A DNA stretch of 64,000 nucleotides, from positions 64,001-128,000 of the IMG/VR virus record IMGVR_UViG_3300024518_000034. The stretch is one strand, 5' to 3'. The notes under the pieces were generated by a model, which worked only from the letters and a program-made list of their open reading frames with translations, was not told the DNA's origin and ran no database searches. Below are positions 14 through 49,446 of the stretch, piece after piece. Origin of the DNA: a virus. A program made the position numbers and the translations under genes. The number at the start of each line of letters is the position of its first letter. Position 1 is the stretch's first letter.

Positions 14-538
14 TTGATCTGTGTCATGTTCAAAGAACTTAAGGAAAAATTCTTTGAGAGAGAAGATGACGATGGACAGACGTGGACTAAATTTTGCAAA
101 GATAGAATAGGAATTTCTAGGCATGCTGTTGCTGGTTATTTGAGAATAGGAAGATATGTATTACCAAGGATTTCTATAGATTTAGCAAACAAACTGGGAG
201 TTGCAAAACTTCTTGTACTTTCCAAGTTAGGAAAGGATGCAGATTGGGATAAAATTCTAAATGAATTGCACGAAGAGGTAGAGTTGAAAACTATAAAACA
301 TATAGCGGACAAATATGGTGGTGTCGAGAGAGAAGATAGACCAAGACCACTAAAAAAGACTGTCTCAACTTTAAGAAAAAATATTGAAGTTTTAGATGAA
401 GATTTGAGAGCTTACTTGCCAAATCCTAACGATTTTGAGTCAAAAAAGAAATTCAAGGAAGTAGCAAACCAACTTTATAACCAAATGGATTCGTTGATGA
501 ATATGATGAGAATGTTAATGAAAGGCGCAGACGAGTAA
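14..538 (+). CDS. Hypothetical HTH-like protein, probably 5'-truncated (DUF3102-like)
   Basis: Frame is open back to the window start; WTKFCKDRIGISRHAVAGYLRIG resembles a small phage HTH family; stop overlaps the dnaE start. Confidence 0.55.
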   Translation: MICVMFKELKEKFFEREDDDGQTWTKFCKDRIGISRHAVAGYLRIGRYVLPRISIDLANKLGVAKLLVLSKLGKDADWDKILNELHEEVELKTIKHIADKYGGVEREDRPRPLKKTVSTLRKNIEVLDEDLRAYLPNPNDFESKKKFKEVANQLYNQMDSLMNMMRMLMKGADE

Positions 539-3500
539 TGAAATATACCCCTCTACATGGACATAGTGACTTTTCAATCTTGGACGCTTGCTCAAATGTA
601 AAAAGCATTTGCAAACGAGCAGCAGAGATTGGACTAGAGCATATAGCACTAACGGACCATGGAACTATGGCTGGAATCTTTGAGTTTTACAAAGAAGCAA
701 AGGCTGTAGGAATAAATCCTATTTTGGGAGTAGAGGCGTATATAGTAGAAGATAGATTGCAACTAGGACCAACAGATGAGCAAAAAGAGGGATTGAGCAA
801 GCCTGAGCGCGATGCTTTAAATAAGAAGCATAGGAAGTATAATCACGTAGGTTTGATAGCTCAGAATGGGACAGGGCTTAAAAATTTATTTCATGTCGTG
901 TCAGACGCTGCAAGAAATGGAACTTATTATAGACCAAGAACTGATTGGGATTATCTTGCAGAACATTCGGAAGGTGTGATAGCGCTTTCAGGATGCCTAC
1001 AGGGAAAAGCCAATAGGATGATTTTGGATGGAAATCTCGATGGGGCGTTGGCACACTTGAAGCAACTAAAAGACATCTTTGGTAAGAGAGTGGTGGCTGA
1101 ATTGCAAGTCAACGAAGCACCAGAACAAAAGATATGTAATGAAAAAATATACATGCTATCGAAAAAAGTAGGGATGCCGTTGGTAGTAACTAACGATTAT
1201 CACTACGTTTCTCCAGAGAGTGTAGAAGCGCACCGCATGTGTAAGTTCATTGATTACATAAAGGGCAGAGGAAAGAAGGATTTGGAGTTTTGTGGGTTTG
1301 AAGGCTATAGAACTACAGGACACTACGTAGCTTCTTATGATGAGTTGAAAAGTCTGTGGGTAGCAAATCACGGAAACATGACGACTGGAATTTTCGAAAG
1401 CGCATGCAGAAACACTATGAAAATAGCTGAAAGTTGCAGCGTGGACATAGACAATTCTCATAAGTTGGTAAAGTTTCCATTGCAAGAGGGAATGAGTAAG
1501 GAAGAGTACTTGAAGAAAGTGGTCACTCATGGGTGGAACAAGCGCAAACACAAATTTGTTGAAGGAAAAAAAGAAGAGTATACTAAGAGAATACAGAAAG
1601 AAATTAATCTGATTAAGAAGATGGGGTACTTAGACTACTTCTTCATGGTTCAAGACTTTATTCTATGGGCAAAAGGACAAGGGATTCCTATAGGGCCAGG
1701 CAGAGGTTCAGCGGCAGGCTCATTACTGTCCTGGCTACTTGAAATCACTCAAATTGACCCAATCAGATATGGGCTATCTTTTGAGCGTTTTTTGAACCCA
1801 CACCGCAAAAAAATGCCAGATATAGACGTTGATGTATGCAAGCGTCGTAGAGGTGAAGTTCTTCAGTATATGAAAGATAGATGGGGAGAGGAAAATGTTG
1901 CTGCGGTAGCCACATATCACAGATTTACTTCAAACTCTTTGTTTAGGGAAGTGTCAAGAGCGTTGGGATGTGAGTACAATACGTATAATGATATTGCTAA
2001 GAAAATTGACCACACTGATAATTGGGAAAACAACTTAGAGAAGAACAAAGAGTTAAAAAATTATGTAGATCAAAATGAAGATATAAATCTTTACATGGAT
2101 GAGTTAGATGGAAATATAAAAAACTTCGGAACTCATGCAGCAGCTATCATTATTACAAATGGAAACATTAGTGACTATTTGCCGCTACGAAGAACTACAG
2201 ATACGGCTGGCAATGTAAATATAATCACAGAAATTGAAAAAGATTTACTGGAGGCGTTTGGATATTTAAAGAAGGATATCTTGGGATTGAAAACTCTGAC
2301 GATAATTGCAGATACTGCAAAAGCGGCAGGAATGACATATGGAGATTTAGAGGACATTCCAGTTGACGATCCAGAAGTTTATAAAATGTTTAACGAAGGA
2401 GACACAGTAGGAGTATTTCAATTTCATGGTAGCGGTATGACAGATTTGGCAGTCGATATAGGCGTTGAGAACATGGAAGACTTGTCAGCCTGTAACACTA
2501 TGTATCGTCCAGCCGTTTTGAAAGCTGGAATCGATAAGAGTTTTATTAGAAGGCGAAGAGGAGATGAAGAAGTAACGTTTTTACATCCCAAACTAAAGGA
2601 TGTACTTGAACCAACAGAGGGGCTCATTATATATCAGGAACAGATAATCCACATTATGATGAAATTGGGATTAGATGAAGGCGAGGCTGATTTGATGAGA
2701 AATGACATGGAGAAGGTTTATAAGGGGGCGAAACCACAATCTGTGTTAGACGATTGGATAGAGAAAGCTAAAAATAGAGGGTTTGGTGAATTTGATGAAG
2801 ATGAAGCTGAAGATGTCATCGACCAAGTGATGGCGCAAATTGGTTATCTGTTCAATAAAGCTCACAGTGTGTCTTATAGTTTAATTGGATATATATGTCA
2901 GTGGCTTAAAGTTTACTATCCTTATGAATTTTTAACATCGTGCTTGAACAATGAGGAGAAGTTAGAAAAAATTGAAGAATATTTGGCGTACTTCAATAAC
3001 ACATATGAGGTTGATATTAAAATTGGAGATCTAAATAATTTTAGTGTAGATTTTTGTGTAGAAGATGAAGAAACAATTAAAGTTGGGCTAGAAAACACTA
3101 AAGGTCTTAGTAAGAAAGTGTTAGATATGGTAAACGATAATAGGCCGTATGATTCTATTATGGACTTTTTCTATAGTGACATTGATTGGCGTGTTTTAAA
3201 TAAAAGAAAAGTTCAGATAATGGCCGAGTTGGGACTGTTTGACGGACTGCCTATATATGAAGATGGACCGAAGATTGAACATGCAAATCAAATGAAAGGA
3301 TTTTATAACGGATTAAGAACATATGGTTCTGGTGAAACAAATCACTATGTAACACAAAAGCAAGATAGAGAAGTTTGGGGTAAGGTTTATGGAGATGTTG
3401 AATTGTACGACAGTCCTTCATTCGCTGACTTGGCTCAAAAGGAAGTTGAATATTTTGGTTTTCACATTGTGTACGATCCGCTGAGCTACATTAGAAATAA

Positions 3501-3795
3501 TTTTGATTTCAAGAAGATAGGAATGGTAATGCCAGGTACTTTGGCGGTGGGTGGAGTAGTTAATGGGATTAAGCTTCACATAGACAAGAAGGGAAATGAA
3601 ATGGCATTTGTGTCATTGAAGACTTTAGAGGACTTCAAAGACATTGTTATCTTTGCTAGCCAATGGGGACATTATAGTAAGAAGTTGAAGATTGGCTCTT
3701 GTGGTATATTTTTCTTAGCTATGTCGGATAGAAAGAGTTATATAGTAAGGAGATATGAAAAGGTAGAGTTACCTCACGGATATGATGGAGAATAA
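538..3795 (+). CDS. dnaE: DNA polymerase III alpha subunit (C family)
   Basis: PHP motifs LHGHSDFS, TDHG, GVEAY, TNDYHY; GPGRGSAAGS; FERFLNP; catalytic PDIDVD; FNKAHSVSY; C-terminal OB fold. Confidence 0.97.
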   Translation: MKYTPLHGHSDFSILDACSNVKSICKRAAEIGLEHIALTDHGTMAGIFEFYKEAKAVGINPILGVEAYIVEDRLQLGPTDEQKEGLSKPERDALNKKHRKYNHVGLIAQNGTGLKNLFHVVSDAARNGTYYRPRTDWDYLAEHSEGVIALSGCLQGKANRMILDGNLDGALAHLKQLKDIFGKRVVAELQVNEAPEQKICNEKIYMLSKKVGMPLVVTNDYHYVSPESVEAHRMCKFIDYIKGRGKKDLEFCGFEGYRTTGHYVASYDELKSLWVANHGNMTTGIFESACRNTMKIAESCSVDIDNSHKLVKFPLQEGMSKEEYLKKVVTHGWNKRKHKFVEGKKEEYTKRIQKEINLIKKMGYLDYFFMVQDFILWAKGQGIPIGPGRGSAAGSLLSWLLEITQIDPIRYGLSFERFLNPHRKKMPDIDVDVCKRRRGEVLQYMKDRWGEENVAAVATYHRFTSNSLFREVSRALGCEYNTYNDIAKKIDHTDNWENNLEKNKELKNYVDQNEDINLYMDELDGNIKNFGTHAAAIIITNGNISDYLPLRRTTDTAGNVNIITEIEKDLLEAFGYLKKDILGLKTLTIIADTAKAAGMTYGDLEDIPVDDPEVYKMFNEGDTVGVFQFHGSGMTDLAVDIGVENMEDLSACNTMYRPAVLKAGIDKSFIRRRRGDEEVTFLHPKLKDVLEPTEGLIIYQEQIIHIMMKLGLDEGEADLMRNDMEKVYKGAKPQSVLDDWIEKAKNRGFGEFDEDEAEDVIDQVMAQIGYLFNKAHSVSYSLIGYICQWLKVYYPYEFLTSCLNNEEKLEKIEEYLAYFNNTYEVDIKIGDLNNFSVDFCVEDEETIKVGLENTKGLSKKVLDMVNDNRPYDSIMDFFYSDIDWRVLNKRKVQIMAELGLFDGLPIYEDGPKIEHANQMKGFYNGLRTYGSGETNHYVTQKQDREVWGKVYGDVELYDSPSFADLAQKEVEYFGFHIVYDPLSYIRNNFDFKKIGMVMPGTLAVGGVVNGIKLHIDKKGNEMAFVSLKTLEDFKDIVIFASQWGHYSKKLKIGSCGIFFLAMSDRKSYIVRRYEKVELPHGYDGE

Positions 3796-16625: not shown

Positions 16626-17526
16626 ACCAAGAGTTGCTATAGTTATGACCACTATGAATCTTAAGTGGACAAAAATGGCATTACCAGATCTTATCGAGAA
16701 TACTAAGTATCCTTACGATCTAATATTGGTGGACGATTGCACTACAGATGAAGCTAGAAAATTTATCTGGAGTGGATATAAAGAAGTAGAAGACGCTTCG
16801 AAAGCGTTAAATAAGAAAATCGTTTGTTTTTCTACGGGAGAAGAGGACAGGCGAGGAGTTGCAGGATGTTGGAATATTGGGTTGGAAAAAGCGATAGAAG
16901 GTGATTATGAATATTGTTTGATTATGAACAATGACATAGCTTTTCCTGCACCAAAAGATGATAAATGCTGGCTTGAGAGACTAGTAGATTTGGGAGACAG
17001 TAATAAAGATTATGCTTGGCTGTCTCCAGCTTGGCATTGGACAGGTGAACCAGAAGCGGGAGGAATTAAGTGTTTTAAAGCTTCCTGTTGGGATTACACA
17101 GAAAAGCATAAAGATCAAATAGACGATGGAGGAATTGGGTGCTTCTTTATGCTTAGGATGGCTGATGTTAAGTGGATGAAGAATTCAGAAGAAGCTAAAG
17201 GTGAAGAGAATCATCCAGGCTTGTTTGATAAAACATCATATCCAACTAACTGGGAAGAAGTGGATTATTTGATAAGATTGAGGAGAAAAACCTCAATAAA
17301 GGTTAAAAATAAAACAGGAACATTTCACGCTGTAGCATTATATCATAAAGGTAGTGGTACAACGGGGTCGCCCGAATGGCATGGAAAAGTTAAAGTAGAT
17401 TACCAAACGGGACATGTCAACTTTTGTAAGAAATGGAATCTTCCTCATCCAAATAGTGGGTTTGGAGTGCATAATGCAATATATGAATATGTTAATAAAG
17501 ATGGCAAATGGGAAAAGGCAACATAG
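16618..17526 (+). CDS. Glycosyltransferase family 2
   Basis: LILVDDCT, GVAGCWNIG, IMNNDI, WEEVDYLIRL, LYHKG. Confidence 0.87.
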   Translation: MSKPRVAIVMTTMNLKWTKMALPDLIENTKYPYDLILVDDCTTDEARKFIWSGYKEVEDASKALNKKIVCFSTGEEDRRGVAGCWNIGLEKAIEGDYEYCLIMNNDIAFPAPKDDKCWLERLVDLGDSNKDYAWLSPAWHWTGEPEAGGIKCFKASCWDYTEKHKDQIDDGGIGCFFMLRMADVKWMKNSEEAKGEENHPGLFDKTSYPTNWEEVDYLIRLRRKTSIKVKNKTGTFHAVALYHKGSGTTGSPEWHGKVKVDYQTGHVNFCKKWNLPHPNSGFGVHNAIYEYVNKDGKWEKAT

Positions 17527-17534
17527 GAGGTGAA

Positions 17535-18539
17535 ATGATTTTAGCAGAATACATATGGATAGATGGAACAACGCCAACAGCGAGGTTAAGATCAAAAACG
17601 AAAGTGTTAACTTTGGAAGACGAAGGAATTTGTCCAGATTGGAACTTTGATGGGTCGTCTACAAATCAGGCTGATGGAGACGATTCAGATGTTAAGCTTA
17701 AAGTTGTAAGAACGGTAAAAGATCCATTTAGAAAAGGTACGAATTACCTTGTTTTGTGTGAATGCACAACTCATGATGGCAAGCCTGTAGAAAGTAATGC
17801 AAGAGCTAAATTGAGAGCGCTGCTGGAGAGTGGTGTTAGAAAAAAGCATGAGCCGTGGGTTGGCTTTGAACAAGAATATACATTAATTGATGAAATATCT
17901 GGGAAACCAAAGGGATTCCCAGAGAGGGGATATCCATCACCGCAAGGGCCATATTATTGTGGAACAAATATACCAGGAAGGGTGGTAATGGAGAGGCATC
18001 TGCAGGCATGCATTGAGGCTGGGTTGAAAATTACGGGTACAAATGCTGAAGTCATGGTTGGGCAGTGGGAATATCAGATTGGCCATGGAGATCCGCTAGA
18101 GATTAGTGATCATCTGTGGATAGCTAGATATCTCTTGGAGAGGATAGCAGAGGAAGAGGGGGTAGGCGTAAGTTTGGAAAATAAACCAGTAAAAGGCGAT
18201 TGGAACGGATCAGGCGCACATTTAAACATATCTATTAAATCAACAAGAGAGAAAAACGGATTAGAGGCTATTGACAAAGTTATATCGAAGTTGAAAAAGT
18301 GTCACAGGGAACATATATTGGAGTATGGGCATGGGTTGGGAGAGAGACTTACTGGTGAACACGAGACTTGTCATATTGGTGAGTTTAAGTGGGGTGTAGC
18401 AGATAGAACTGCATCCATTAGAATTCCTTATAAAGTTTATAAGGATAAGAGGGGGTATTTTGAAGATAGAAGGCCAGGGGCCAATATTGATCCATATCGA
18501 GCATGTAGAAGGATGCTACAAACAATAGCAAGTGAATAA
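17535..18539 (+). CDS. glnII: Glutamine synthetase type II
   Basis: EYIWIDG, WNFDGSSTNQA, GFEQEY, PQGPYYCG, NAEVMVGQWEYQIG, DWNGSGAH, RLTGEHET, FEDRRPGANIDPY; SD GGAGG. Confidence 0.95.
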   Translation: MILAEYIWIDGTTPTARLRSKTKVLTLEDEGICPDWNFDGSSTNQADGDDSDVKLKVVRTVKDPFRKGTNYLVLCECTTHDGKPVESNARAKLRALLESGVRKKHEPWVGFEQEYTLIDEISGKPKGFPERGYPSPQGPYYCGTNIPGRVVMERHLQACIEAGLKITGTNAEVMVGQWEYQIGHGDPLEISDHLWIARYLLERIAEEEGVGVSLENKPVKGDWNGSGAHLNISIKSTREKNGLEAIDKVISKLKKCHREHILEYGHGLGERLTGEHETCHIGEFKWGVADRTASIRIPYKVYKDKRGYFEDRRPGANIDPYRACRRMLQTIASE

Positions 18540-19026
18540 AAAATGTACAAAGTGTAATTCAAGTAAAGATATTTCTAATTTTTATAAAGATAAGCACAAT
18601 AAGGATGGGTATAATTATAGATGTAAATTTTGTGTGAATCAAGGAAATACGTGCAGTGAATGCGGTAAAAGTATTACAAAAAGATCAAAATATTGCGATA
18701 GGTGTTGTAAAATTGGAGTGAAAAATCCTGACTGGAAGGGCGGCAGAGTTGTAAGAGGGTCTGGCTATGTTAGGGTTAAGATGCGAGATCATCCGAATGC
18801 GCACGTTGATGGCTATGTATTTGAACACGTAATGATAATGTCTAAAATGATAGGAAGACCATTGTTAAAAAAAGAAACAGTACATCATAAAAATGGAATT
18901 AAAAATGATAATAGACTAGAAAATCTTGAATTGTGGAGTTCAGATCATCCTTCTGGTCAAAGAGTAAAAGATTTAGTAAAGTGGGCTAAAGAGATACTTA
19001 GAAAATATGGTGATAGATGCGACTAG
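18532..19026 (+). CDS. Free-standing HNH endonuclease with N-terminal Zn fingers
   Basis: CxxC pairs; EHVMIM, VHHKNGIKNDNRLENLELW. Confidence 0.9.
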   Translation: MNKKCTKCNSSKDISNFYKDKHNKDGYNYRCKFCVNQGNTCSECGKSITKRSKYCDRCCKIGVKNPDWKGGRVVRGSGYVRVKMRDHPNAHVDGYVFEHVMIMSKMIGRPLLKKETVHHKNGIKNDNRLENLELWSSDHPSGQRVKDLVKWAKEILRKYGDRCD

Positions 19027-19580
19027 AACTTGGACCAGGAAACGATCCGTCACCGGGTTTTGATTACTATGTAGACATTGCTCCTCTTGATCATGTAACT
19101 CATGTGCTTGATTTTGCCAAACAAGGACTGCAAGGTTTTGAGGATAACAGTCTTGATGAAATCTTAGCTATACATTTTCTTGAGCATTTACCACAAGGCA
19201 AGCAAAGTTATTTTTTTGCTGAATGTAAGAGAAAACTAAAAGTGGGCGGCAAGCTTGTAGTACATGTACCAAACTTAGAAACGATATTTAGAGCATATGA
19301 GTGTTTTAAAAATAATAACCAATATGATGCGCTTATGACAGAGCTTCAATCGATGTTATTTGGTGTACACAATGGTGATGTTTATTCTGTGCATAAAATA
19401 GCGTATAATTGGCAAATATTAGAGAAAATGTTTCACAATCATGGGTATGAGCCTGTGAGAAACCTAACAGGAATAAAAAAGGACAGACACACTGTTGGTT
19501 GGGAGTGGGTCACAAAGTATATAAGAGATGCTGGTGGAGTCACACCAGAATTTAGTTTAATAGTAGAAGGGAAAAAATAA
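19017..19580 (+). CDS. Class I SAM-dependent methyltransferase
   Basis: RLELGPG motif I, VDI, DEILAIHFLEHL, LKVGG. Confidence 0.85.
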   Translation: MRLELGPGNDPSPGFDYYVDIAPLDHVTHVLDFAKQGLQGFEDNSLDEILAIHFLEHLPQGKQSYFFAECKRKLKVGGKLVVHVPNLETIFRAYECFKNNNQYDALMTELQSMLFGVHNGDVYSVHKIAYNWQILEKMFHNHGYEPVRNLTGIKKDRHTVGWEWVTKYIRDAGGVTPEFSLIVEGKK

Positions 19581-20560
19581 TGAAATCACCGGGAAAAAAG
19601 TTTAAAGAATTAATCGAAAAAGATGGATATATTTTTACAGGTGGAGTATACGATGCTATATCTGCAAAAGTAGCAGCGATGGCTGGAATGAAGGCTTTGT
19701 ATTTGTCAGGATATTCTCAGTCATTGGGGTTGCTTGGAAGATCAGATATGGAATTTGTACAGAGACATCAGGCTGTTGACAATTCGAGAAGAGTAGCAGA
19801 GTCACTAGAAGATGGCGGATTTGATGTCCCAGTAATCGCAGATGCAGATACAGGCTATGGGTCAGTTAATCAGGTTCAATACACTGTGAGGTCGTTTGAG
19901 CGTGCTGGTGTTGCAGGTGTACATCTAGAGGATCAAACGATTCCTAAGAGGTGCGGGCATATTGCAGGAAAGACAGTGCTTCCTATGGAGGAAAGCGTTG
20001 GAAAGATTGCAGCAGCAGTTGATGCAAAAACGGACAAGGATTTCATTATTATAGCAAGAACTGATGCATTGGGTGCAGCCGGTGGATCTATGGAAGATGC
20101 AGTTAAGAGAGCTATCGCGTACCACGACGCAGGTGCTGACATGGTATGGTGCGAGTTTGGCAGTGCATCTAGAGAGTTAGCTAAAGAGTTTGCATATCTT
20201 ACAACATCGTTAAGACCAAAAATGGGTTTGGCTTTTAACTATTCTTCGTCATTTAAGTGGCACGAGCAAAAAGAGCCTATGGTCGCTGAAGAATTGCACG
20301 AGATGGGCTATACATTTATGTTTGTAACATTGTTTGGTATTCATGCTGCAACGCTAAGCTTGTATAATCATTTTGAAAATATGTATGTAGACGGACCAGT
20401 GGCTCAGTGGGATTTAGAAGTGCTTAAGAAAAATCATCCAACGGAGAGTCATCACGTCATGGGAGATACTGCAACATATCAAGCAGTAGAGCAGAAGTTT
20501 CTGCCAACTGTGGCAACTGAAAGAATTGAAGCATCAGAAGGATATAAGGAAGAAAAATAA
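19580..20560 (+). CDS. aceA: Isocitrate lyase (ICL/PEP-mutase superfamily, short type)
   Basis: ADADTGYG, HLEDQTIPKRCGH catalytic motif, IARTDA, LAFNYSSSFKW, HPTESHH. Confidence 0.8.
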   Translation: MKSPGKKFKELIEKDGYIFTGGVYDAISAKVAAMAGMKALYLSGYSQSLGLLGRSDMEFVQRHQAVDNSRRVAESLEDGGFDVPVIADADTGYGSVNQVQYTVRSFERAGVAGVHLEDQTIPKRCGHIAGKTVLPMEESVGKIAAAVDAKTDKDFIIIARTDALGAAGGSMEDAVKRAIAYHDAGADMVWCEFGSASRELAKEFAYLTTSLRPKMGLAFNYSSSFKWHEQKEPMVAEELHEMGYTFMFVTLFGIHAATLSLYNHFENMYVDGPVAQWDLEVLKKNHPTESHHVMGDTATYQAVEQKFLPTVATERIEASEGYKEEK

Positions 20561-20561
20561 T

Positions 20562-21551
20562 ATGCATCCAAGTGAAGCGTTAGTTGAAAGAGGGACTAAG
20601 GATATACCAACAATGTCGCCAGTTGAACATTTCTGCGGGACGGAAAAGTTTGTAAAGAAAGCGATGAAAATTCAGCAAGAGAGAAATGGTGATTTTGACA
20701 TTACTATCGATCTGGAAGATGGTGCGCCAAAAGGTAAAGAGAAAGACAACCTTGATATGGCTATTGCTATGATCAAGTCAGACGACAATAAGTTTAATAG
20801 AATAGGTGTACGTATCCATGACCCAGGAAACGATTGGTGGTTTAAAGAGGCTAATTTATTGAGAGAAGAAGTTGGAGATAGATTAGCTTATATAACTTTG
20901 CCAAAAGTTCTAGGTGCGGAAGATGTAATGAAAATGAGAACAACGCTTTTTAGGTCAAACCTTTCTCTGCATGTAATCATTGAAACGCTTGAGGCGTTTC
21001 AGAATTTAGATGACATTTTAAAAGTACACAATGTAGATTTAGTAGATTTTGGCCTTATGGACTTTACATCTGCCCACCAGGGAATTCTTTCAAGAGATGT
21101 AATGAAATCGCCGCAGCAGTTTACAAACCCATTGATGCAATATTATAAGTCACAGTTTGTGGCAAAAGCCTTGGCAGCAGGTAAAGTGCCAGCACACAAT
21201 GTAACAGTGGATGTTGGTAAAAAGGACTTAGCATATAAAGACGCAGCAACAGCAAGAAACGATTTCGGCTTCTTGCGTATGTGGTCCGTCTTTCCTGCTC
21301 AGATAGATGAAATTATGAGAGGCATGGCGTCAGCATATAATCTCTTGCAGTTGAAGGCGTATTCTGATATCCTATGTAAGGCTCAAGAAGCGGACTGGGG
21401 TCCAATCGGTTATATGGGTAAGATGGAAGACAGAGCAACGTATAGACTTTATTGGCAGACTCTGAAGAGAGCAAGAAGTGTAACTGGAGTTGAAATTCCA
21501 GCAGAAGCAGAAGAAAGATTTTTTAAGGACGTTAAGCTAGTGGGAGCATAA
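20562..21551 (+). CDS. CitE/HpcH-family acyl-CoA lyase (malyl-CoA lyase/malate synthase-like)
   Basis: IDLEDGA, GVRIHD, LPKV, IIETL, FGLMDF, HNVT, GFLRMWSVFPAQI, DRATYR. Confidence 0.85.
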   Translation: MHPSEALVERGTKDIPTMSPVEHFCGTEKFVKKAMKIQQERNGDFDITIDLEDGAPKGKEKDNLDMAIAMIKSDDNKFNRIGVRIHDPGNDWWFKEANLLREEVGDRLAYITLPKVLGAEDVMKMRTTLFRSNLSLHVIIETLEAFQNLDDILKVHNVDLVDFGLMDFTSAHQGILSRDVMKSPQQFTNPLMQYYKSQFVAKALAAGKVPAHNVTVDVGKKDLAYKDAATARNDFGFLRMWSVFPAQIDEIMRGMASAYNLLQLKAYSDILCKAQEADWGPIGYMGKMEDRATYRLYWQTLKRARSVTGVEIPAEAEERFFKDVKLVGA

Positions 21552-21554
21552 AAA

Positions 21555-21905
21555 ATGTATTTAAACAAGTATCAAGAAGAAGCGACAAGAACAGCTAGGA
21601 ATTTTGAAGACGTTGAAATGGGGCCAACCAAGTTGGCCCTAGCTAATTGGGCGCTAGGTTTAGCAGGTGAAGCAGGAGAGGCGGCAGAGCTTGTAAAAAA
21701 GCATGTATTTCACGGACATGAGTTAGATTTGGCTGAAGTTAGAAAAGAGCTAGGTGATGTGTTGTGGTATATAGCTAATCTGGCTGAAACTGTGGGACTG
21801 GAAATGGAAGATATAGCTAAGGCTAATATTGAAAAGTTGAAAGCTAGATATGGTGATGGGTTTTCAGAAGAGAAATCTCAAAATAGAGTAGAATATAGCA
21901 ACTAA
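21555..21905 (+). CDS. MazG-like NTP pyrophosphohydrolase
   Basis: LGLAGEAGE, KELGDVLWY, NIEKLKARY. Confidence 0.9.
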   Translation: MYLNKYQEEATRTARNFEDVEMGPTKLALANWALGLAGEAGEAAELVKKHVFHGHELDLAEVRKELGDVLWYIANLAETVGLEMEDIAKANIEKLKARYGDGFSEEKSQNRVEYSN

Positions 21906-22816
21906 TGAACATATTAATGCTTTTTGCTTTTACTGATAAACCAGCCTCTCCAGCTTGGTATATCAGAAGGTCTTTTCTTCGTATGGGTCATAGTATAACT
22001 ACGATGGGCCATAATTGTGAGATTAATACTAAAGGTAAAAATCCTTATCAAACTCAAAACATTCACAGTATAATAAAAAAGAAGAATATTGATCTAGTTT
22101 TGGAAATAGACTCTGGAGGTTTTGACATAAGTTGGAACCCTGGACCTTTGAAGAATCAATATAAGAATGTTAAATTTGTATACTGGGGATCAGATACACA
22201 CTTGGGAACTGTTGCAGGAGTGTATGGGAACAAGAGAAAAAGATACGATTTGGCATTTTTCGCACAGAAGAAGTTTATTGATGATCAGCATATGTCTCAC
22301 AGGTATTGGTTACCACACGCATGTGATCCAGAATTTCACAATCCAGACATAAAAGACAAGAAGAAGATTCACGATGTAACATTTATTGGACATAAGCATC
22401 CTACGGTACATGGTAAAAGAATTACCTTGCTTCAAATGATTAAAAATGATAGAATAAACATTAATGACAGGTGTTATATTTATACAGATAAGATGGGTGC
22501 TGAGTTCGTTAAAAGCAGAATTGTGTTGAATTGTTCATTGAATGGCGACTTAAATATGAGGTTTTTTGAAGCCATGTGTTCTGGTGCATGTTTGCTGACT
22601 GATTGGTCAGATCATGGAGGTTTTACAGAACAAGGATTTAAAAGAGGGGAACATTATTGTGCTTACGATAGTAATCGTCATGCGGTGACAGCGATAAGAG
22701 CATTGCTTAACGACCATGAGAAAAGAAAGAGAATAGCTAAGGCTGGACAAAAGTATGTTTTGGAAAATCATACCTATGATAATAGGGCGAAAAAAATATT
22801 AAGTTTTGTAGAATGA
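21905..22816 (+). CDS. GT-B glycosyltransferase (CgeB/YkvP-like)
   Basis: WLPHACDP, VTFIG, LNCSLNGDLNMRFFEAMCSGACLLTD, HTYDNRA. Confidence 0.87.
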   Translation: MNILMLFAFTDKPASPAWYIRRSFLRMGHSITTMGHNCEINTKGKNPYQTQNIHSIIKKKNIDLVLEIDSGGFDISWNPGPLKNQYKNVKFVYWGSDTHLGTVAGVYGNKRKRYDLAFFAQKKFIDDQHMSHRYWLPHACDPEFHNPDIKDKKKIHDVTFIGHKHPTVHGKRITLLQMIKNDRININDRCYIYTDKMGAEFVKSRIVLNCSLNGDLNMRFFEAMCSGACLLTDWSDHGGFTEQGFKRGEHYCAYDSNRHAVTAIRALLNDHEKRKRIAKAGQKYVLENHTYDNRAKKILSFVE

Positions 22817-23295
22817 GCAGCACTGTTGATTATTTTGGTATTGTTTACGGAAGGAATCAAACAATGAATTGGAAATATTACGAACTAGTTGAAGGCGTGC
22901 ATAATAAGTTTTGGATGATAGCTAGACATGAAGATGGAAAAGGATTCACGGCGCGATGGGGGAAAATTGGAACAACTGGTCAAATGCAAATGAAGAATTT
23001 TTCAAGCGTAAGTAGGACTATAAAAGCCTTTAATGACAAAGTGTGGGAGAAAACTAAAAAGAGGTATGTATTAAAACATCATGGGGATGATTTCTTGACA
23101 GCGGAAGGTGCTAATGCGTATAGGCCTGGTCGCCCAATTACGGAAACTATGAAGTACTTCAGAAGAAGAGATCCAATCGTACATGATCCAAATAAGACAA
23201 TCACACCGGCACCAAAGAAGAAAAAAGCTAAAGGTAAGAAGACTGCGATAAAGCCAAAGTTTAAAATAAGAATAAGGAAAAGAAAAGCAGAATGA
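22813..23295 (+). CDS. WGR-domain protein with basic tail
   Basis: YYEL-NKFWMI-ARWGKIGTTGQ-EKTKKRY. Confidence 0.8.
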   Translation: MSSTVDYFGIVYGRNQTMNWKYYELVEGVHNKFWMIARHEDGKGFTARWGKIGTTGQMQMKNFSSVSRTIKAFNDKVWEKTKKRYVLKHHGDDFLTAEGANAYRPGRPITETMKYFRRRDPIVHDPNKTITPAPKKKKAKGKKTAIKPKFKIRIRKRKAE

Positions 23296-44978: not shown

Positions 44979-45052
44979 GCCTCCGTAACTCAATTAGGTA
45001 GAGTACCCGCCTTTTAAGCGGCACAGTCTTGGTTCGATTCCAAGCGGAGGTA
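44979..45052 (+). tRNA. tRNA-Lys(TTT)
   Basis: GCCTCCG/CGGAGGT acceptor, loop CTTTTAA, TTCGATT; no encoded CCA. Confidence 0.9.
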
Positions 45053-45074
45053 TAAGAAAAGGGAGGGTAGTAAT

Positions 45075-45455
45075 TTGGCAAAGCAAAAATATAGGTTGAC
45101 ACCACCAACAATTCATCGTAAGATTAGAGACGAGAAGAGAACGGTGGCGTCAGAGAAGTATGGCAAGAAGACTAAGTATCGTATTGGTTTTGTACAAAGA
45201 GAAACAGTAGCAGGATTAGTTAAGCATATTTATATTGATCCTCGCCCAGTAAGAGATGAACCTGGAGTTTTCACAAGTACAGAAGCTTACATTACTCAAA
45301 GTAATCATTTGGATACTAAGTTTAGTGATGTAACTAAAACACCAACTGGTAAGGTTTTCTTCAGATGGATCGATAGGCAGACGTTAAGATCTTTAAGAAG
45401 AAAGATGACTTGGGCCGGTATAAAATTAGTAAAAAAGCAAACAGTAACAGTTTAA
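45075..45455 (+). CDS. Hypothetical basic protein
   Basis: TTG start with SD GGGAGG. Confidence 0.65.
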   Translation: MAKQKYRLTPPTIHRKIRDEKRTVASEKYGKKTKYRIGFVQRETVAGLVKHIYIDPRPVRDEPGVFTSTEAYITQSNHLDTKFSDVTKTPTGKVFFRWIDRQTLRSLRRKMTWAGIKLVKKQTVTV

Positions 45456-45458
45456 TAT

Positions 45459-45551
45459 AACGTGCAGCGCACAGGTTGCGGGCTAATTGGGAGTCTAGTG
45501 GCAGATGCAGAAGCGGTAAACCCAATGGATCTGAAACTACAAGTACACGTT
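45459..45551 (+). ncRNA. Candidate pseudoknotted structured RNA
   Basis: AACGT/ACGTT closing stem; GCAGC/GTTGC hairpin; crossing helices ATTGGG/CCCAAT and TAGT-CAGAT/ATCTG-ACTA. Confidence 0.45.
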
Positions 45552-45552
45552 A

Positions 45553-45622
45553 AATATTACCGAGCGGTAAAAAGGAGTAGCAAAAGCGGCTGAAGTCGGT
45601 ATAATATTACCGAGCGGTAAAA
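45553..45622 (+). repeat. Two exact 20-nt palindromic direct repeats with a 30-nt spacer
   Basis: AATATTACCGAGCGGTAAAA at 45553 and 45603; core AGCGGTAAA also at 45512. Confidence 0.85.
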
Positions 45623-45661
45623 TTAGTCGCTTATCAAGACAGCCTGGAAAGACAGGCAACT

Positions 45662-45734
45662 GGGAACGTAACTTAATTGGCAAAGCACCTGACTCTTAAT
45701 CAGAGAGATGGAGGTTCAAGTCCTCCCGTTCCTA
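45662..45734 (+). tRNA. tRNA-Lys(CTT)
   Basis: GGGAACG/CGTTCCT, loop CTCTTAA, GGAGG-TTCAAGT-CCTCC. Confidence 0.9.
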
Positions 45735-45747
45735 TTAGAAACAAAAT

Positions 45748-45820
45748 GCCCTGCTTGCTGGATTGCAGACTAGGGACTTCTAATCCTTAAGACCATGTTC
45801 GATTCATGGGTGGGGTGCCA
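45748..45820 (+). tRNA. tRNA-Arg(TCT), shortened D-arm
   Basis: Loop CTTCTAA, CCATG-TTCGATT-CATGG, encoded CCA. Confidence 0.75.
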
Positions 45821-45933
45821 GATATGAAAAGCACATTGGAAAGAATTAACGTAAAGAAACTTTTAGAGTTTTGCAATAAGTTATTTGGGCCAAAGGTTGC
45901 AAAAGAAATGGAAGCTTTGAATAAGAAAAAGAT

Positions 45934-46008
45934 GGAGAGGAAGTCAAATGGATAGACGCTGTTCTGATACGACAGTTTCAGCAGGTTCGATTCCTGCCCT
46001 CTCTACCA
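45934..46008 (+). tRNA. tRNA-Ile(GAT)
   Basis: GGAGAGG/CCTCTCT, loop CTGATAC, CCA. Confidence 0.9.
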
Positions 46009-46057
46009 TAATTGTGTATAGAATATAACTAAAATACACTATAGTACTTATAATAGG

Positions 46058-46303
46058 GTGAAGAAAATGAGTAGGTCATATAGAAAGACTCCAATTTGTG
46101 GAAACACAAAAGCGGAATCTGAAAAAGAAGATAAAAAGATTGCAAATAGAAGTTTTAGAAGAAAAACTAAAATGCAATTAATTAACTCAGATGAGGAACT
46201 TCTCTTTAACATAAGACAAGTTTGTGATGGACGAGGATATTATTCCAAGGACGGCAAACAGTGGATTGACAAAGAGGAACATCCTGATATAATGAGGAAG
46301 TAG
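46058..46303 (+). CDS. Small basic hypothetical protein
   Basis: MSRSYRKTP-DKKIANRSFRR. Confidence 0.65.
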   Translation: MKKMSRSYRKTPICGNTKAESEKEDKKIANRSFRRKTKMQLINSDEELLFNIRQVCDGRGYYSKDGKQWIDKEEHPDIMRK

Positions 46304-46310
46304 TAAAGAA

Positions 46311-46386
46311 GGCGGTATAGCCCAACGGCAGAGGCAGCAGGTTCAAATTCTGTACAGTCTAGGTTCGAATCCTAGTATCGCTACCA
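46311..46386 (+). tRNA. tRNA-Leu(CAA) with short variable loop
   Basis: GGCGGTA/TATCGCT, loop TTCAAAT, 5-nt variable ACAGT, CCA. Confidence 0.85.
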
Positions 46387-46477
46387 AGATTCGCAAAGGG
46401 ACTCCCCGATGATGGAGATAATGTTTCATTTTTAAAATGATAGAAGTAAATTAATTAGAAGTAAAAAGTTATAACTC

Positions 46478-46507
46478 GCGGCTAAGTTTGCAAGCTTGGC
46501 CGCACCA
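46478..46507 (+). other. tRNA-minihelix-like hairpin ending in ACCA
   Basis: 11-bp stem GCGGCTAAGTT/AGCTTGGCCGC with TGCA loop, then ACCA. Confidence 0.5.
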
Positions 46508-46508
46508 A

Positions 46509-46591
46509 CCAGAGACTAGGCATCGGTGAGCCCAGCGGTCTGTAAAACCGCCGTGAAAACTGTGGGTGTTCGAATCACCCTCTCTGGACCA
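46509..46591 (+). tRNA. tRNA-Tyr(GTA) with C1-G72
   Basis: CCAGAGA/TCTCTGG, loop CTGTAAA, 12-nt variable arm, CCA. Confidence 0.88.
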
Positions 46592-46666
46592 TTATTACAT
46601 GTGATGTATATCGACAGGTTTGTGAGGACGACACCTGGCTTAATCAAAAAAATCATCCTTATTTAT

Positions 46667-46741
46667 GGGCCTATCATCTAAAGGTTAAGATACCGGACTG
46701 TCGATCCGGCGATTGGGGTTCGATTCCCCATAGGCTCGCCA
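46667..46741 (+). tRNA. tRNA-Asp(GTC)
   Basis: GGGCCTA/TAGGCTC, loop CTGTCGA, GCCA. Confidence 0.93.
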
Positions 46742-46786
46742 GACAGGTTTTTCGGTTGTTCCTGTATAAATAAAACTCCGATTTAT

Positions 46787-46863
46787 GTCCCACTAGCCCA
46801 ACTGGCAGAGGTAAGCGGCTTAAACCCGTAACAGTCTAGGTTCGAATCCTAGGTGGGATACCA
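46787..46863 (+). tRNA. tRNA-Leu(TAA) with short variable loop
   Basis: GTCCCAC/GTGGGAT, loop CTTAAAC, variable ACAGT, CCA. Confidence 0.85.
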
Positions 46864-46915
46864 GCAAAATTTAAACGGCTTAACAATATGTACAACTTGA
46901 AGGGGGTGTCAGAAA

Positions 46916-47887
46916 ATGAAGTATAAACTGATGAATAGGAGGAACCGAGTGTACCAAAAACAGCTAGATTTAACTTTATCTGGTACTGGCCCTGTAAGAT
47001 TTCCAGCGTGGGTTGGCGTTCTAAGATATATAGAAGAAAGAGGATACCATATACGTAGACTTGCCGGTACATCGGGTGGCGCATTAGTTGGCGGTTTATA
47101 CGCGGCTGGGATGTCAGTAGACGACTTGGAAAGTGTTCTACTTAAAACAGATTATTCGGATTTCGCTAGGACTAGTTGGTGGAGAGTAGCAAAAGCTATT
47201 GCTTGGCCAAAAGCTTTTGGTGGCGGCTATATGAATAACGGGTATAAGTTAGAAAAGTTTCTACATGGTCTTATTGGAAAGAAATCTTTTAAACACGCAA
47301 AAGGATTACATATATTTACTACAGATATGTGTAATGGCGTATCTAAGATTTTTAATTGGAAAGATGACTATCATTATTCAATAGCTAAGGCTATTCGAGC
47401 AAGTATTTCTTTACCTATCATCTGGAATGGTGTACCATATAAGTACAAAAAGGGACACAGAGTGAAGGGGATAAAGAGAAGAAGAACTGTTTTGATGGAT
47501 GGCGGTTTAAGAAACAATTTTCCAATTGATTACTTTGAACCAACAGATTTGGATGTAATAAGTGGAAAGAAAGTCCCACTTGTTGGGTTTACAATTGAGC
47601 ATGATTTTTGTACAATTAAAGAACAGTATTCGTTTAAGGATATTGGTGGATCAGTTATTTCAAATATGATCGGAGCAGCAGATCGAAAATATGAGGAAGA
47701 CAGTAAAGGAAATTACATAATGTTGACTCATGGCGATCTGGATGATGGAAACCCTTACGAGTTTGATATAAATAATAGCGTAAAGGCAAAGTGGATTGAA
47801 GCAGGGTATAAGGTAGCAAGAGATAACTGGGGCGATTTAATTAATACCTCAGAAAAAGAGGTTGACAAACCTGTTGCTCAGAGATAA
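46916..47887 (+). CDS. Patatin-like phospholipase
   Basis: LAGTSGG (GxSxG), IRASISLP, MDGG catalytic Asp. Confidence 0.88.
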   Translation: MKYKLMNRRNRVYQKQLDLTLSGTGPVRFPAWVGVLRYIEERGYHIRRLAGTSGGALVGGLYAAGMSVDDLESVLLKTDYSDFARTSWWRVAKAIAWPKAFGGGYMNNGYKLEKFLHGLIGKKSFKHAKGLHIFTTDMCNGVSKIFNWKDDYHYSIAKAIRASISLPIIWNGVPYKYKKGHRVKGIKRRRTVLMDGGLRNNFPIDYFEPTDLDVISGKKVPLVGFTIEHDFCTIKEQYSFKDIGGSVISNMIGAADRKYEEDSKGNYIMLTHGDLDDGNPYEFDINNSVKAKWIEAGYKVARDNWGDLINTSEKEVDKPVAQR

Positions 47888-47890
47888 CAT
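47862..47890 (+). promoter_or_regulatory. Sigma70-type promoter
   Basis: TTGACA-17 nt-TAACAT. Confidence 0.65.
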
Positions 47891-47954
47891 AGTACTAGAG
47901 GTTAAAATTTAAGGGAAAATTTGGTTTGCTTTTTAGCAGAAAGGAAGTTTAGTT

Positions 47955-48548: not shown

Positions 48549-48581
48549 GAAACAAATAGCCTAAGAAATTAGGCTATCTTA

Positions 48582-48654
48582 GGCCCTGTAGTTTACTTGG
48601 TAAGAACGCCAGGCTTTCACCCTGGAAGATCGGGTTCGAATCCCGGCAGGGTCA
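48582..48654 (+). tRNA. tRNA-Glu(TTC)
   Basis: GGCCCTG/CAGGGTC, loop CTTTCAC. Confidence 0.9.
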
Positions 48655-48685
48655 TTATTTTTTAAACATTGGCAGAGGGTATAAA

Positions 48686-49129: not shown

Positions 49130-49132
49130 ACT

Positions 49133-49199
49133 GGGCGACCCCATGGTGGGACAGTGGACTTACATTCCATTAGATCAGGTTCGATTCCTGGGTGGCCTA
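49133..49199 (+). tRNA. Degenerate tRNA-Val(TAC), possible pseudo-tRNA
   Basis: GTGGA-CTTACAT-TCCAT, T-arm TTCGATT; only 67 nt, C8, truncated D-arm, acceptor mismatch. Confidence 0.55.
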
Positions 49200-49235
49200 T
49201 TACCAGAGGTATAAACGTAAACGTAACCAGCATGA

Positions 49236-49349: not shown

Positions 49350-49355
49350 AGGTTT

Positions 49356-49431: not shown

Positions 49432-49446
49432 GAGGGGGGCAAAAAA

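What the first reader, a model, noticed from the sequence alone, without database searches (positions are those of the whole stretch)
19580..21551. Phage-encoded glyoxylate-shunt-like pair: isocitrate lyase plus CitE-type acyl-CoA lyase
Seen: adjacent genes 1 nt apart, one with the ICL motif DQTIPKRCGH plus LAFNYSSSFKW and HPTESHH, the next a CitE/HpcH TIM barrel (DLEDG, HNVT, GFLRMWS, DRATY). Established: ICL cleaves isocitrate to glyoxylate and succinate; CitE-family malyl-CoA lyases and the haloarchaeal-type malate synthase condense glyoxylate with acetyl-CoA. From memory, the first resembles the short haloarchaeal-type AceA and the second the CitE-like protein of betaproteobacterial TCA clusters. 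Inference: the phage carries a two-gene glyoxylate bypass that spares carbon for gluconeogenesis, feeding sugar nucleotides for the surrounding glycosyltransferases and dNTPs. I do not know of this shunt as a phage auxiliary module.
Basis: partly seen in the sequence, partly recalled or inferred. Interest (0 to 1): 0.85.

Follow-up and report, generated by a model that had tools for sequence, protein, structure and literature searches.

The report
Phage glyoxylate-bypass pair, non-canonical second enzyme
An uncultured 192-kb marine phage carries, side by side, a stripped-down isocitrate lyase and a CoA-ester lyase of a family with no known function. Together they probably give the infected cell a glyoxylate bypass, an idea already published for large phages but only with the standard second enzyme.

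Summary
Two intact genes, 19580-20560 and 20562-21551, lie 1 nt apart in a 192,308-bp IMG/VR phage.

**Gene 1** is a short (326 aa) isocitrate lyase:
- It has ICL-type, not methylisocitrate-lyase-type, substrate residues.
- Its model matches true ICLs best.
- One of three bacterial homologues examined neighbours malate synthase G in one of its two contig contexts.

**Gene 2** is a CitE-like CoA-ester lyase of the orphan 3QQW/3R4I family:
- All four catalytic and metal residues are kept.
- The nearest characterised enzymes are malyl-CoA lyases.

**The pair is conserved.** It recurs, adjacent or one gene apart, in five phage contexts at 46-95% identity. The phage copies form their own groups in both trees. 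Neither phage genome checked has a canonical malate synthase.

**Best reading (about 0.55):** isocitrate gives succinate plus glyoxylate, then glyoxylate plus acetyl-CoA gives malyl-CoA or malate. This would be an anaplerotic bypass during replication.

**Main weakness:** the second enzyme's substrate is inferred. Its bacterial relatives are not linked to ICL, and half of those checked coexist with a normal malate synthase.

Phage aceA/aceB were reported in 2013 and 2017 (an aceBA operon in a 179-kb marine phage), and adjacent pairs in huge phages in a 2025 preprint. What is new is the non-canonical partner.

The scan also noted this stretch on the same genome in an overlapping window.

The parts
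19580..20560 (+). Short (326 aa) isocitrate lyase of the ICL/PEP-mutase superfamily. Its ATG overlaps the TAA stop of the upstream methyltransferase (TAATG), and GAAGGGA lies about 10 nt upstream.
20562..21551 (+). CitE-like / HpcH-fold CoA-ester lyase (329 aa) of the 3QQW/3R4I family. Candidate malyl-CoA lyase or malate synthase. AAGGAAG lies about 10 nt upstream of the ATG.
21555..21905 (+). MazG-type nucleotide pyrophosphohydrolase, 3 nt downstream. This is context only. MazG and/or ThyX lie next to the pair in three of five phage contexts.
19017..19580 (+). Class I methyltransferase translationally coupled to the ICL gene. This is context only. A methyltransferase also lies near the pair in L007/L008 and in the SRR20820740 contig.
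17508..18539 (+). GlnII-type glutamine synthetase. Possibly a co-functional precursor-supply gene. It is part of a GlnII+HNH cassette that the 84%-identical relatives lack.

Best explanation
The two genes form a phage-carried, minimal glyoxylate bypass.

**Step 1 (well supported).** The short ICL cleaves isocitrate to succinate and glyoxylate.

**Step 2 (inferred).** The CitE-like enzyme uses its conserved Arg/Asp catalytic pair and Glu/Asp-bound Mg2+ to condense glyoxylate with acetyl-CoA to (S)-malyl-CoA. Malate would then be released either by hydrolysis in the same enzyme, as in haloarchaeal malate synthase and CLYBL (the CLYBL activity is from my own knowledge), or by a host thioesterase.

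**Net effect (inferred).** The CO2-losing TCA steps are skipped and C4 acids accumulate (malate, then oxaloacetate, then aspartate). This would feed nucleotide and sugar-precursor synthesis while the phage replicates. It fits the neighbouring MazG and ThyX genes in several lineages and the GlnII gene here.

**History.** The pair was acquired long ago. It has been kept as a unit in several lineages of large phages.
For: **ICL identity**
- In alignment A3 the phage protein and its relatives carry KRCGH plus the ICL-specific WCE, N-x-S-x-S-F-x-W and T-L-x-G-x-H motifs of E. coli AceA. PrpB instead has F-P-E, no NxSxS motif, and P-L.
- The AF2 model has pLDDT 89.7. The 20 best PDB folds are all true ICLs (TMq 0.82-0.87). 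Methylisocitrate lyases score 0.75-0.77 and OAH/DMML about 0.72.
- In the tree the family groups with AceA against PrpB (100).
- A 49%-identical Methylomirabilota homologue sits between a LysR regulator and malate synthase G.

**CitE-like enzyme**
- PDB matches: 3QQW 5.6e-83 and 3R4I 1.5e-64.
- The model has pLDDT 90.9. After its own family, the best folds are malyl-CoA lyases (TM about 0.73).
- Profile A1 hits malyl-CoA lyases 4L9Y at 7e-23, 5UGR at 9e-18 and 4L7Z at 8.5e-16. These come ahead of RipC (1.4e-9) and CitE (about 1e-4).
- R84, E141, D167 and D290 align with Arg76, Glu141, Asp168 and Asp299 of the R. sphaeroides enzyme. PMC3832036 names these as the catalytic and Mg residues.
- All four are at least 98% conserved across 121 family members.
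- Bacterial copies neighbour malate dehydrogenase (15 loci) and malic enzyme. They also neighbour a mesaconyl-CoA-hydratase-like gene, a second CitE and prpBCD. This is malate and C4/C5 acyl-CoA chemistry.

**Linkage in phages**
- Five phage contexts at 46-95% identity keep ICL and HpcH adjacent or one gene apart.
- The six phage ICLs form one clade (SH-aLRT 95). The phage HpcHs lie outside a 100%-supported clade of 25 bacterial ones.
- G000 and the complete 395-kb phage G006 have no PF01274 malate synthase. Each has a single PF03328 gene.

**Precedent**
- A 178.6-kb marine phage that also has DnaE, with GC 37.5%, carries canonical AceA plus AceB side by side (PMC5332604).
- A preprint reports 22 ICL-adjacent 'malate synthases' in huge phages.
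Against: - No member of the 3QQW/3R4I family has a known reaction (PMC3832036).
- The phage protein scores far below the malyl-CoA lyase equivalog (32 bits against a cut-off of 500).
- In bacteria the family is not linked to ICL. None of the 80 loci examined has a short ICL; seven have a PrpB-like gene next door.
- Five genomes with the family lack both a true ICL and a malate synthase. Five others have a canonical malate synthase, and four of these also a canonical ICL. The family is therefore not simply a stand-in malate synthase.
- Neither phage encodes a 4HBT thioesterase or a second CitE-like protein. The release of malate is unexplained.
- Phage copies differ from bacterial ones at His289 to Glu, next to the catalytic Asp.
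- Two of the three bacterial short ICLs examined, and one of the two contigs carrying the third, show no malate synthase neighbour.
- The host is unknown.
Confidence: 0.55

Rival explanations
1. The ICL is real, but the partner handles glyoxylate differently. It might condense glyoxylate with propionyl-CoA to beta-methylmalyl-CoA. It might act only as a malyl-CoA thioesterase. It might cleave citramalyl-CoA or a related ester. The pair would then detoxify or divert glyoxylate rather than complete a classical shunt.
For: - Bacterial homologues sit with a mesaconyl-CoA-hydratase-like gene, an acyl-CoA dehydrogenase, a second CitE and the methylcitrate genes prpBCD. That fits C5-dicarboxyl-CoA and propionyl-CoA chemistry.
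- Characterised malyl-CoA lyases are promiscuous for these substrates (PMC3832036).
Against: - The phages carry none of the accessory genes (hydratase, dehydrogenase, CoA ligase, prpCD) that go with these routes in bacteria.
- The thioesterase subgroup has Glu in place of the catalytic Asp (PMC3832036). The phage protein keeps Asp290.
Confidence: 0.2
2. The pair is not central metabolism. It makes a specialised building block, such as a glyoxylate-, succinate- or malyl-derived group, for the phage's glycan or another modification pathway.
For: - The pair lies inside a glycosyltransferase and methyltransferase island.
- In G006 an RmlD-type reductase (1.4e-55) sits between the two genes.
- In the SRR20820740 contig a sugar-nucleotide epimerase/dehydratase and a methyltransferase lie just upstream.
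Against: - No acyltransferase or CoA ligase was seen among the immediate neighbours scanned with Pfam.
- The genes between or beside the pair differ in every lineage: none, an 81-aa ORF, a 248-aa ORF, RmlD. This looks like insertion noise.
- The ICL substrate residues are those for isocitrate.
- No such pathway is known.
Confidence: 0.1
3. Gene 1 is a methylisocitrate lyase or another member of the superfamily (oxaloacetate acetylhydrolase, dimethylmalate lyase, PEP mutase). The pair would then serve propionate or oxalate metabolism.
For: - By sequence alone, the best PDB hits are OAH, petal death protein and MICL.
- The best NCBIfam model is prpB, at 179.8 bits.
- Some bacterial HpcH genes abut a PrpB-like gene.
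Against: - All these scores are below the curated cut-offs (prpB 179.8 against 354.4).
- The MICL pocket residues Phe/Leu/Pro are replaced by the ICL Trp/Thr set and NxSxS motif.
- Fold ranking and the tree both place the protein with ICLs.
- A Cys in the KRCGH loop excludes PEP mutase, which lacks this Cys (from my own knowledge).
Confidence: 0.07
4. The genes are passenger DNA: a recent host-derived insert, an assembly chimera, or decaying morons with no function.
For: The genes lie in a variable region with indels between close relatives.
Against: - Synteny holds in independent assemblies, and GC3 is phage-like.
- The reading frames are intact, with all catalytic residues kept at 46-95% identity across five contexts.
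- The phage copies form their own groups in both trees.
Confidence: 0.03

Closest known systems
Phage aceBA operon of marine EVG TARA_ERS478052_N000008 (Nishimura et al. 2017, PMC5332604). Also the adjacent ICL and malate synthase genes of huge phages (bioRxiv 10.1101/2025.02.27.640493).
   Same: - Two adjacent genes in a large uncultured marine phage that would install a glyoxylate bypass.
- The TARA phage is of similar size (178.6 kb) and GC (37.5%).
- It also encodes a DnaE-type polymerase, a MazG-superfamily protein and polysaccharide genes.
- G006 is huge_phage_1226 in the preprint's collection.
   Different: - The TARA genes are canonical: AceA 411 aa (TIGR01346 3.4e-178) and malate synthase A 502 aa (PF01274).
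- Here the ICL is a 326-aa minimal form below every equivalog cut-off, and the partner has no PF01274 match.
- I could not see whether the preprint's structure-based 'malate synthases' include this family, because its Table 10 is not held.
Haloferax volcanii ace operon: AceA plus haloarchaeal malate synthase (PDB 3OYZ). From Serrano & Bonete 2001, as cited in PMC7746861 and PMC3832036.
   Same: - An ICL paired with a malate-forming enzyme that forms trimers or hexamers like CitE-like enzymes and is described as probably closer to malyl-CoA lyases than to malate synthases A and G.
- The nearest Atlas cluster to the phage ICL is a 357-aa archaeal ICL.
   Different: - The phage partner shows no sequence match to 3OYZ at E 0.01 or below.
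- It is about 100 residues shorter than the 433 aa I recall for that enzyme (length from memory).
- It belongs to the 3QQW/3R4I family.
- The haloarchaeal link of the ICL was not tested by alignment.
Reut_B4148 (3QQW) and Bxe_B2899 (3R4I): CitE-like proteins of unknown function.
   Same: - 36-38% identity over the full length, with TM 0.8-0.9.
- The same conserved residues.
   Different: - The phage proteins branch outside the bacterial clade.
- They differ at 10 otherwise conserved positions, including His289 to Glu.
- They are always linked to an ICL, which the bacterial genes are not.
Malyl-CoA / beta-methylmalyl-CoA lyases (R. sphaeroides Mcl1 4L9Y, M. extorquens 5UGR, C. aurantiacus 4L7Z).
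   Same: - TIM barrel plus C-terminal lid.
- Arg/Asp catalytic pair and Glu/Asp Mg ligands.
- The nearest characterised enzymes by both profile and fold.
   Different: - Only about 19% identity.
- NF041626 scores 32 bits against a cut-off of 500.

Membership tests
Isocitrate lyase (EC 4.1.3.1) | Catalytic loop K-[KR]-C-G-H with the general-acid Cys. | tested here: met
   KRCGH at residues 123-127. It is invariant in A2 and A3.
Isocitrate lyase (EC 4.1.3.1) | Succinate-side residues that separate ICL from MICL: Trp-x-Glu, Asn-x-Ser-x-Ser and Thr (M. tuberculosis W283/E285, N313/S315/S317, T347; numbering from my own knowledge). | tested here: met
   W190-C-E192, N220-Y-S222-S-S224 and T250 align with E. 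coli AceA WCE, NCSPS and TL. PrpB has FPE, GATPL and PL.
Isocitrate lyase (EC 4.1.3.1) | Score above the curated equivalog cut-offs (TIGR01346, NF011645). | tested here: not met
   123.8 bits against 275.9, and 129 against 562. The protein lacks about 45 N-terminal residues and two insertions of AceA.
Isocitrate lyase (EC 4.1.3.1) | Fold closest to solved ICLs over the full length. | tested here: met
   The top 20 Foldseek hits are all ICLs, with TMq 0.82-0.87.
Isocitrate lyase (EC 4.1.3.1) | Cleaves isocitrate to glyoxylate plus succinate. | not testable with these tools
   Needs an enzyme assay. Supporting context: malate synthase G lies next to a 49%-identical bacterial homologue. This holds for only one of the three homologues examined, in one of its two contigs.
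2-Methylisocitrate lyase (PrpB) | TIGR02317 cut-off, and a hydrophobic pocket (Phe/Leu/Pro) for the methyl group. | tested here: not met
   179.8 bits against 354.4. The pocket positions are Trp and Thr, as in ICL.
CitE-like superfamily (PF03328 clan) | Conserved catalytic Arg and lid Asp, plus Glu/Asp Mg ligands, on a TIM barrel with a C-terminal lid. | tested here: met
   R84, D290, E141 and D167 align with MCLR Arg76, Asp299, Glu141 and Asp168 (PMC3832036). The model shows a barrel plus a beta-hairpin lid at 282-289. PF03328 scores 30.2 bits against a cut-off of 25.
3QQW/3R4I orphan CitE-like family | Full-length sequence and fold match. | tested here: met
   E-values 5.6e-83 and 1.5e-64. 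TM 0.8-0.9. The phage clade lies outside the sampled bacterial clade.
Malyl-CoA lyase (Mcl) | Equivalog-level similarity, and malyl-CoA cleavage or condensation. | tested here: not met
   NF041626 scores 32.4 bits against a cut-off of 500. The resemblance is at superfamily level only. Activity cannot be tested here.
Malate synthase A/G (PF01274) | MS TIM-barrel domain. | tested here: not met
   No PF01274 hit for any of the 17 family members at E up to 1. None in G000 or G006.
Haloarchaeal malate synthase (3OYZ type) | Detectable sequence relationship to 3OYZ. | tested here: not met
   3OYZ, 3OYX and 3PUG are absent from the PDB hits, both for the single sequence (E up to 0.01) and for the profile (E up to 0.001).

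The most novel reading that the evidence does not exclude
The phage branch of the orphan 3QQW/3R4I family is a new, minimal class of malate synthase: a malyl-CoA lyase with built-in thioester hydrolysis. It would have been recruited with a minimal ICL into a roughly 2-kb portable glyoxylate shunt. That would also assign a first reaction to a structurally solved bacterial family found in at least 579 bacterial genomes (GTDB species representatives). A still stranger reading is not excluded (about 0.1): the pair supplies a glyoxylate- or malyl-derived group for the phage's glycan chemistry.
Probability: 0.3. Interest if true: 0.65.

Novelty: new variant of a known kind. Interest (0 to 1): 0.45.

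Why it matters
Phage-encoded glyoxylate-shunt genes are already known. A further example is therefore only modest news.

The added value is twofold.

First, several lineages of large marine phages keep a 2-kb, two-gene version built from a minimal ICL and a non-canonical partner. This argues that rerouting the host TCA cycle at isocitrate is under real selection during infection. It also gives a compact module to test in E. coli ace mutants.

Second, strict linkage to ICL in phages is the first functional clue for the 3QQW/3R4I CitE-like family. That family was crystallised in 2011, is widespread in Betaproteobacteria, Leptospira, Kangiella and Chloroflexota, and still has no assigned reaction.

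Tried and rejected
- **Chimeric or host insert: rejected.** Synteny with L007/L008 and phage-like GC3 argue against it.
- **MICL, OAH or PEP mutase identity for gene 1: rejected.** Residues, fold and tree all point to ICL.
- **'HpcH replaces a missing malate synthase in bacteria': not upheld.**
  - 5 of 5 Leptospira, Kangiella, Pleionea, Tepidiformaceae and Methylophaga genomes lack PF01274.
  - 5 of 5 betaproteobacterial and myxobacterial genomes have it.
  - So there is no clean complementarity.
- **Search of GenBank phages:** it found no HpcH homologue and only a 31%-identical, unpaired ICL-family gene in Kyanoviridae phage C48C1.
- **Full-text search for '3QQW':** it returned only noise.
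- **Search for 'malyl-CoA lyase' with viral AMGs:** it returned nothing.
- **Second thioesterase or CitE gene in the phages:** none found.
- **Supplementary Table 10 of the huge-phage preprint:** it is not held, so I could not see which family its 'malate synthases' belong to.
- **ICL tree:** the careful IQ-TREE search did not finish, so the quick tree is reported.
Full report
**1. The observation**

The two ORFs are present as described. The ICL-like gene runs 19580-20560 (326 aa). A CitE/HpcH-like gene follows it. The real start of the second gene is ATG 20562. All 17 aligned homologues begin M-x-x-H-P-x-E-A-L, which leaves a 1-nt gap after the ICL stop codon. Both starts are preceded by purine-rich Shine-Dalgarno-like sequences (GAAGGGA, AAGGAAG). 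The ICL ATG overlaps the stop of the upstream methyltransferase.

Pfam gives PEP_mutase 1.2e-41 plus ICL 3.1e-30 for gene 1, and HpcH_HpaI 3.5e-7 for gene 2. Its neighbours, in order:
- a GT2 glycosyltransferase
- a GlnII glutamine synthetase (NF041605, 1.7e-127)
- an HNH endonuclease
- a methyltransferase (immediately upstream of the pair)
- MazG (immediately downstream)
- a GT-B glycosyltransferase
- a WGR protein
- a GT4 glycosyltransferase

The window is positions 64001-128000 of a 192,308-bp IMG/VR virus record that CheckV rates about 90% complete. All long ORFs lie on one strand. There is a DnaE-type polymerase with at most 32% identity to any GenBank phage, an SbcC-like nuclease and 12 tRNAs.

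**2. Not an artefact**

Two independent assemblies, JGI 3300009418 and ENA ERZ27274935, are collinear with the window at about 84% nucleotide identity. The collinear stretch runs from SbcC through the glycosyltransferases, the methyltransferase, ICL and HpcH. GC3 of the two genes (0.32, 0.35) equals that of DnaE and SbcC (0.35, 0.30). The closest bacterial homologues are only 45-50% identical. The genes are therefore old residents of the phage.

**3. Gene 1 is an isocitrate lyase of a short type**

Sequence searches alone are ambiguous. The best PDB hits are oxaloacetate acetylhydrolase, petal death protein and methylisocitrate lyases. The best NCBIfam model is prpB. Every equivalog score is below its cut-off.

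Three independent tests point to ICL:
- **Residues.** The phage protein was aligned with E. coli AceA and PrpB, fetched from NC_000913.
  - It shares the AceA-specific motifs WCE, N-x-S-x-S-F-x-W, T-L-x-G-x-H and the C-terminal SHH/SHQ.
  - PrpB and a Methylophaga PrpB-like protein have F-P-E, no NxSxS motif, and P-L.
  - These are the positions that, from the published ICL and MICL structures (my own knowledge), bind the succinate half and discriminate against the methyl group.
- **Fold.** The AlphaFold model (pLDDT 89.7) finds only true ICLs among its 20 best PDB matches, with TMq 0.82-0.87. MICLs score 0.75-0.77.
- **Tree.** The family groups with AceA against PrpB.

The protein is a minimal ICL. 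It lacks about 45 N-terminal residues and two insertions of AceA.

About 3,700 homologues exist. The closest cellular ones are 320-325-aa proteins of Methylomirabilota, Rokubacteria and Binatia. One of them lies between a LysR regulator and malate synthase G. Two others stand alone.

The ESM Atlas places the phage ICL nearest a 357-aa archaeal 'Isocitrate lyase' cluster (TM 0.96).

**4. Gene 2 is a CitE-like CoA-ester lyase of an orphan family**

Its closest solved relatives are Reut_B4148 (3QQW, 5.6e-83) and Bxe_B2899 (3R4I, 1.5e-64). Zarzycki and Kerfeld list both as CitE-like enzymes of unknown function (PMC3832036).

The model (pLDDT 90.9) matches them at TM 0.8-0.9. Next come malyl-CoA lyases at about 0.73, then M. 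tuberculosis CitE, citramalyl-CoA lyase and CLYBL. A profile of the family hits malyl-CoA lyases at 7e-23 to 3e-14. These come ahead of RipC (1.4e-9) and CitE (about 1e-4).

In those alignments R84, E141, D167 and D290 fall on Arg76, Glu141, Asp168 and Asp299 of the R. sphaeroides enzyme. That paper identifies these as the catalytic Arg/Asp pair and the Mg ligands. All four are at least 98% conserved across the 121 aligned family members.

The protein has no match to malate synthase PF01274 or to haloarchaeal malate synthase. It is far below the malyl-CoA lyase equivalog cut-off.

**5. What the bacterial relatives say**

They include Betaproteobacteria, Kangiella/Pleionea, Methylophaga, Leptospira, Chloroflexota and Myxococcota.

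Clustering the neighbours in 80 loci gave three recurrent settings:
- GntR, then malate dehydrogenase, then [H], then aconitase B.
- Acyl-CoA dehydrogenase, then a MaoC/mesaconyl-CoA-hydratase-like gene, then [H]. In methylotrophs a second CitE precedes this set and prpB-prpC-prpD follows it.
- A second CitE, an AMP-forming CoA ligase and a third HpcH-like gene, lying divergent from [H].

Malic enzyme is also a neighbour in some loci. All of this points to malate and C4/C5-dicarboxyl-CoA chemistry. None of it involves a short ICL.

A presence/absence test was not clean. Five genomes lack both malate synthase and a true ICL. Five others have a canonical malate synthase, and four of these also a canonical ICL. 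The bacterial function therefore remains open, and the family is not simply an alternative malate synthase.

**6. The pair is a conserved phage module**

Phage-type copies of both genes occur together in five contexts:
- This genome.
- Its 84%-identical relatives L007/L008, which have an extra 81-aa ORF between the two genes.
- A 5.9-kb contig carrying epimerase, methyltransferase, an unknown ORF, ThyX, ICL and HpcH, with the same 1-nt gap.
- A 16.7-kb contig carrying ThyX, MazG, ICL, a 248-aa ORF and HpcH.
- The complete 395-kb phage IMGVR_UViG_3300032132_000001 (G006), where an RmlD-type reductase sits between them.

In the trees the six phage ICLs form one clade (SH-aLRT 95). The phage HpcHs lie outside a 100%-supported clade of 25 bacterial sequences. 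These are quick trees with some long branches, and the cellular sampling is limited to best hits.

G000 and G006 each have one PF03328 gene, no PF01274 gene and no 4HBT thioesterase.

**7. Mechanism**

*Shown.* An intact ICL-type active site. An intact CitE-type active site. Tight, probably translationally coupled adjacency. Long-term co-inheritance in phages.

*Inferred.* The ICL releases glyoxylate and succinate from host isocitrate. The CitE-like enzyme condenses glyoxylate with acetyl-CoA to malyl-CoA. Malate then follows, either by hydrolysis in the same active site or by a host enzyme. The precedents for same-site hydrolysis are the haloarchaeal malate synthase (PMC3832036) and CLYBL (my own knowledge).

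The likely benefit is anaplerosis without CO2 loss. C4 acids would supply aspartate, nucleotides and gluconeogenesis. This fits the MazG and ThyX neighbours in three of five contexts and the GlnII gene here. It remains speculation.

I put the ICL assignment at about 0.85. I put 'the partner consumes glyoxylate with an acyl-CoA' at about 0.65. I put the complete malate-forming bypass at about 0.55.

**8. Comparison with the literature**

- Hurwitz et al. [quoted passage not shown]
- Nishimura et al. 2017 described an aceBA operon in a complete marine viral genome.
  - That genome is 178.6 kb with GC 37.5%.
  - It has a DnaE-type polymerase, a MazG-superfamily gene and polysaccharide genes.
  - Its gene table shows a canonical AceA (411 aa, TIGR01346 3.4e-178) and malate synthase A (502 aa).
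- A 2025 preprint reports 98 ICL and 22 'malate synthase' genes in huge phages. [quoted passage not shown] It also reports glutamine synthetases.
  - G006 is in that collection as huge_phage_1226.
  - G006 has the one-gene-apart layout, so that survey may already have counted this family by structure. I could not check.

The concept is therefore known. The non-canonical composition, its conservation, and the clue it gives for the 3QQW/3R4I family are what is new.

No paper in the held library links malyl-CoA lyase-like enzymes to viral auxiliary genes.

**9. Verdict**

This is a new variant of a known kind. Interest is moderate (0.45).

Noticed in passing
window 17521-19022: The GlnII glutamine synthetase plus the HNH endonuclease form a 1.5-kb cassette that is absent from the 84%-identical relatives L007/L008. 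Those run straight from the GT2 gene into the methyltransferase. Conversely, they carry an 81-aa ORF between ICL and HpcH that this phage lacks. The HNH gene (GC 0.33) may have moved the cassette.
   Followed up: partly
L022-L101 (bacterial loci of the 3QQW/3R4I family): The orphan CitE-like family has three recurrent bacterial settings:
- GntR, mdh, [H], acnB.
- Acyl-CoA dehydrogenase, a MaoC/mesaconyl-CoA-hydratase-like gene, then [H]. In methylotrophs a second CitE precedes these and prpBCD follows.
- CitE, an AMP-forming ligase and a third HpcH-like gene, divergent from [H] (Kangiella, Pleionea).

This looks like an undescribed C4/C5-dicarboxyl-CoA route ending in malate and propionyl-CoA.
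   Followed up: partly
window 538-3795: The replicative polymerase is a DnaE-type Pol III alpha (phrog_405, 1.5e-273) with at most 32% identity to any GenBank phage. The published aceBA-carrying TARA phage (178.6 kb, GC 37.5%) also has a DnaE, so the two may belong to one lineage of large marine phages.
   Followed up: partly
window 44979-51069: An array of 12 tRNA genes: Lys x2, Arg, Ile, Leu x2, Tyr, Asp, Glu, Thr, Asn, Pro.
   Followed up: no
L102 (Phage C48C1, OQ984149.1 44175-45416): A Kyanoviridae phage encodes a 413-aa 'hypothetical protein' of the ICL/PEP-mutase superfamily. It is 31% identical to the window's ICL over 81% of its length and has no HpcH partner.
   Followed up: no
L009 11120-12757 and 2279-2986 (395-kb phage G006): The huge phage that shares the pair also encodes a TROVE/Ro-like protein and a sigma-70 family factor close to the pair.
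   Followed up: no
window 22813-23295: A stand-alone WGR-domain protein (2e-14) with a lysine-rich tail lies between two glycosyltransferase genes.
   Followed up: no
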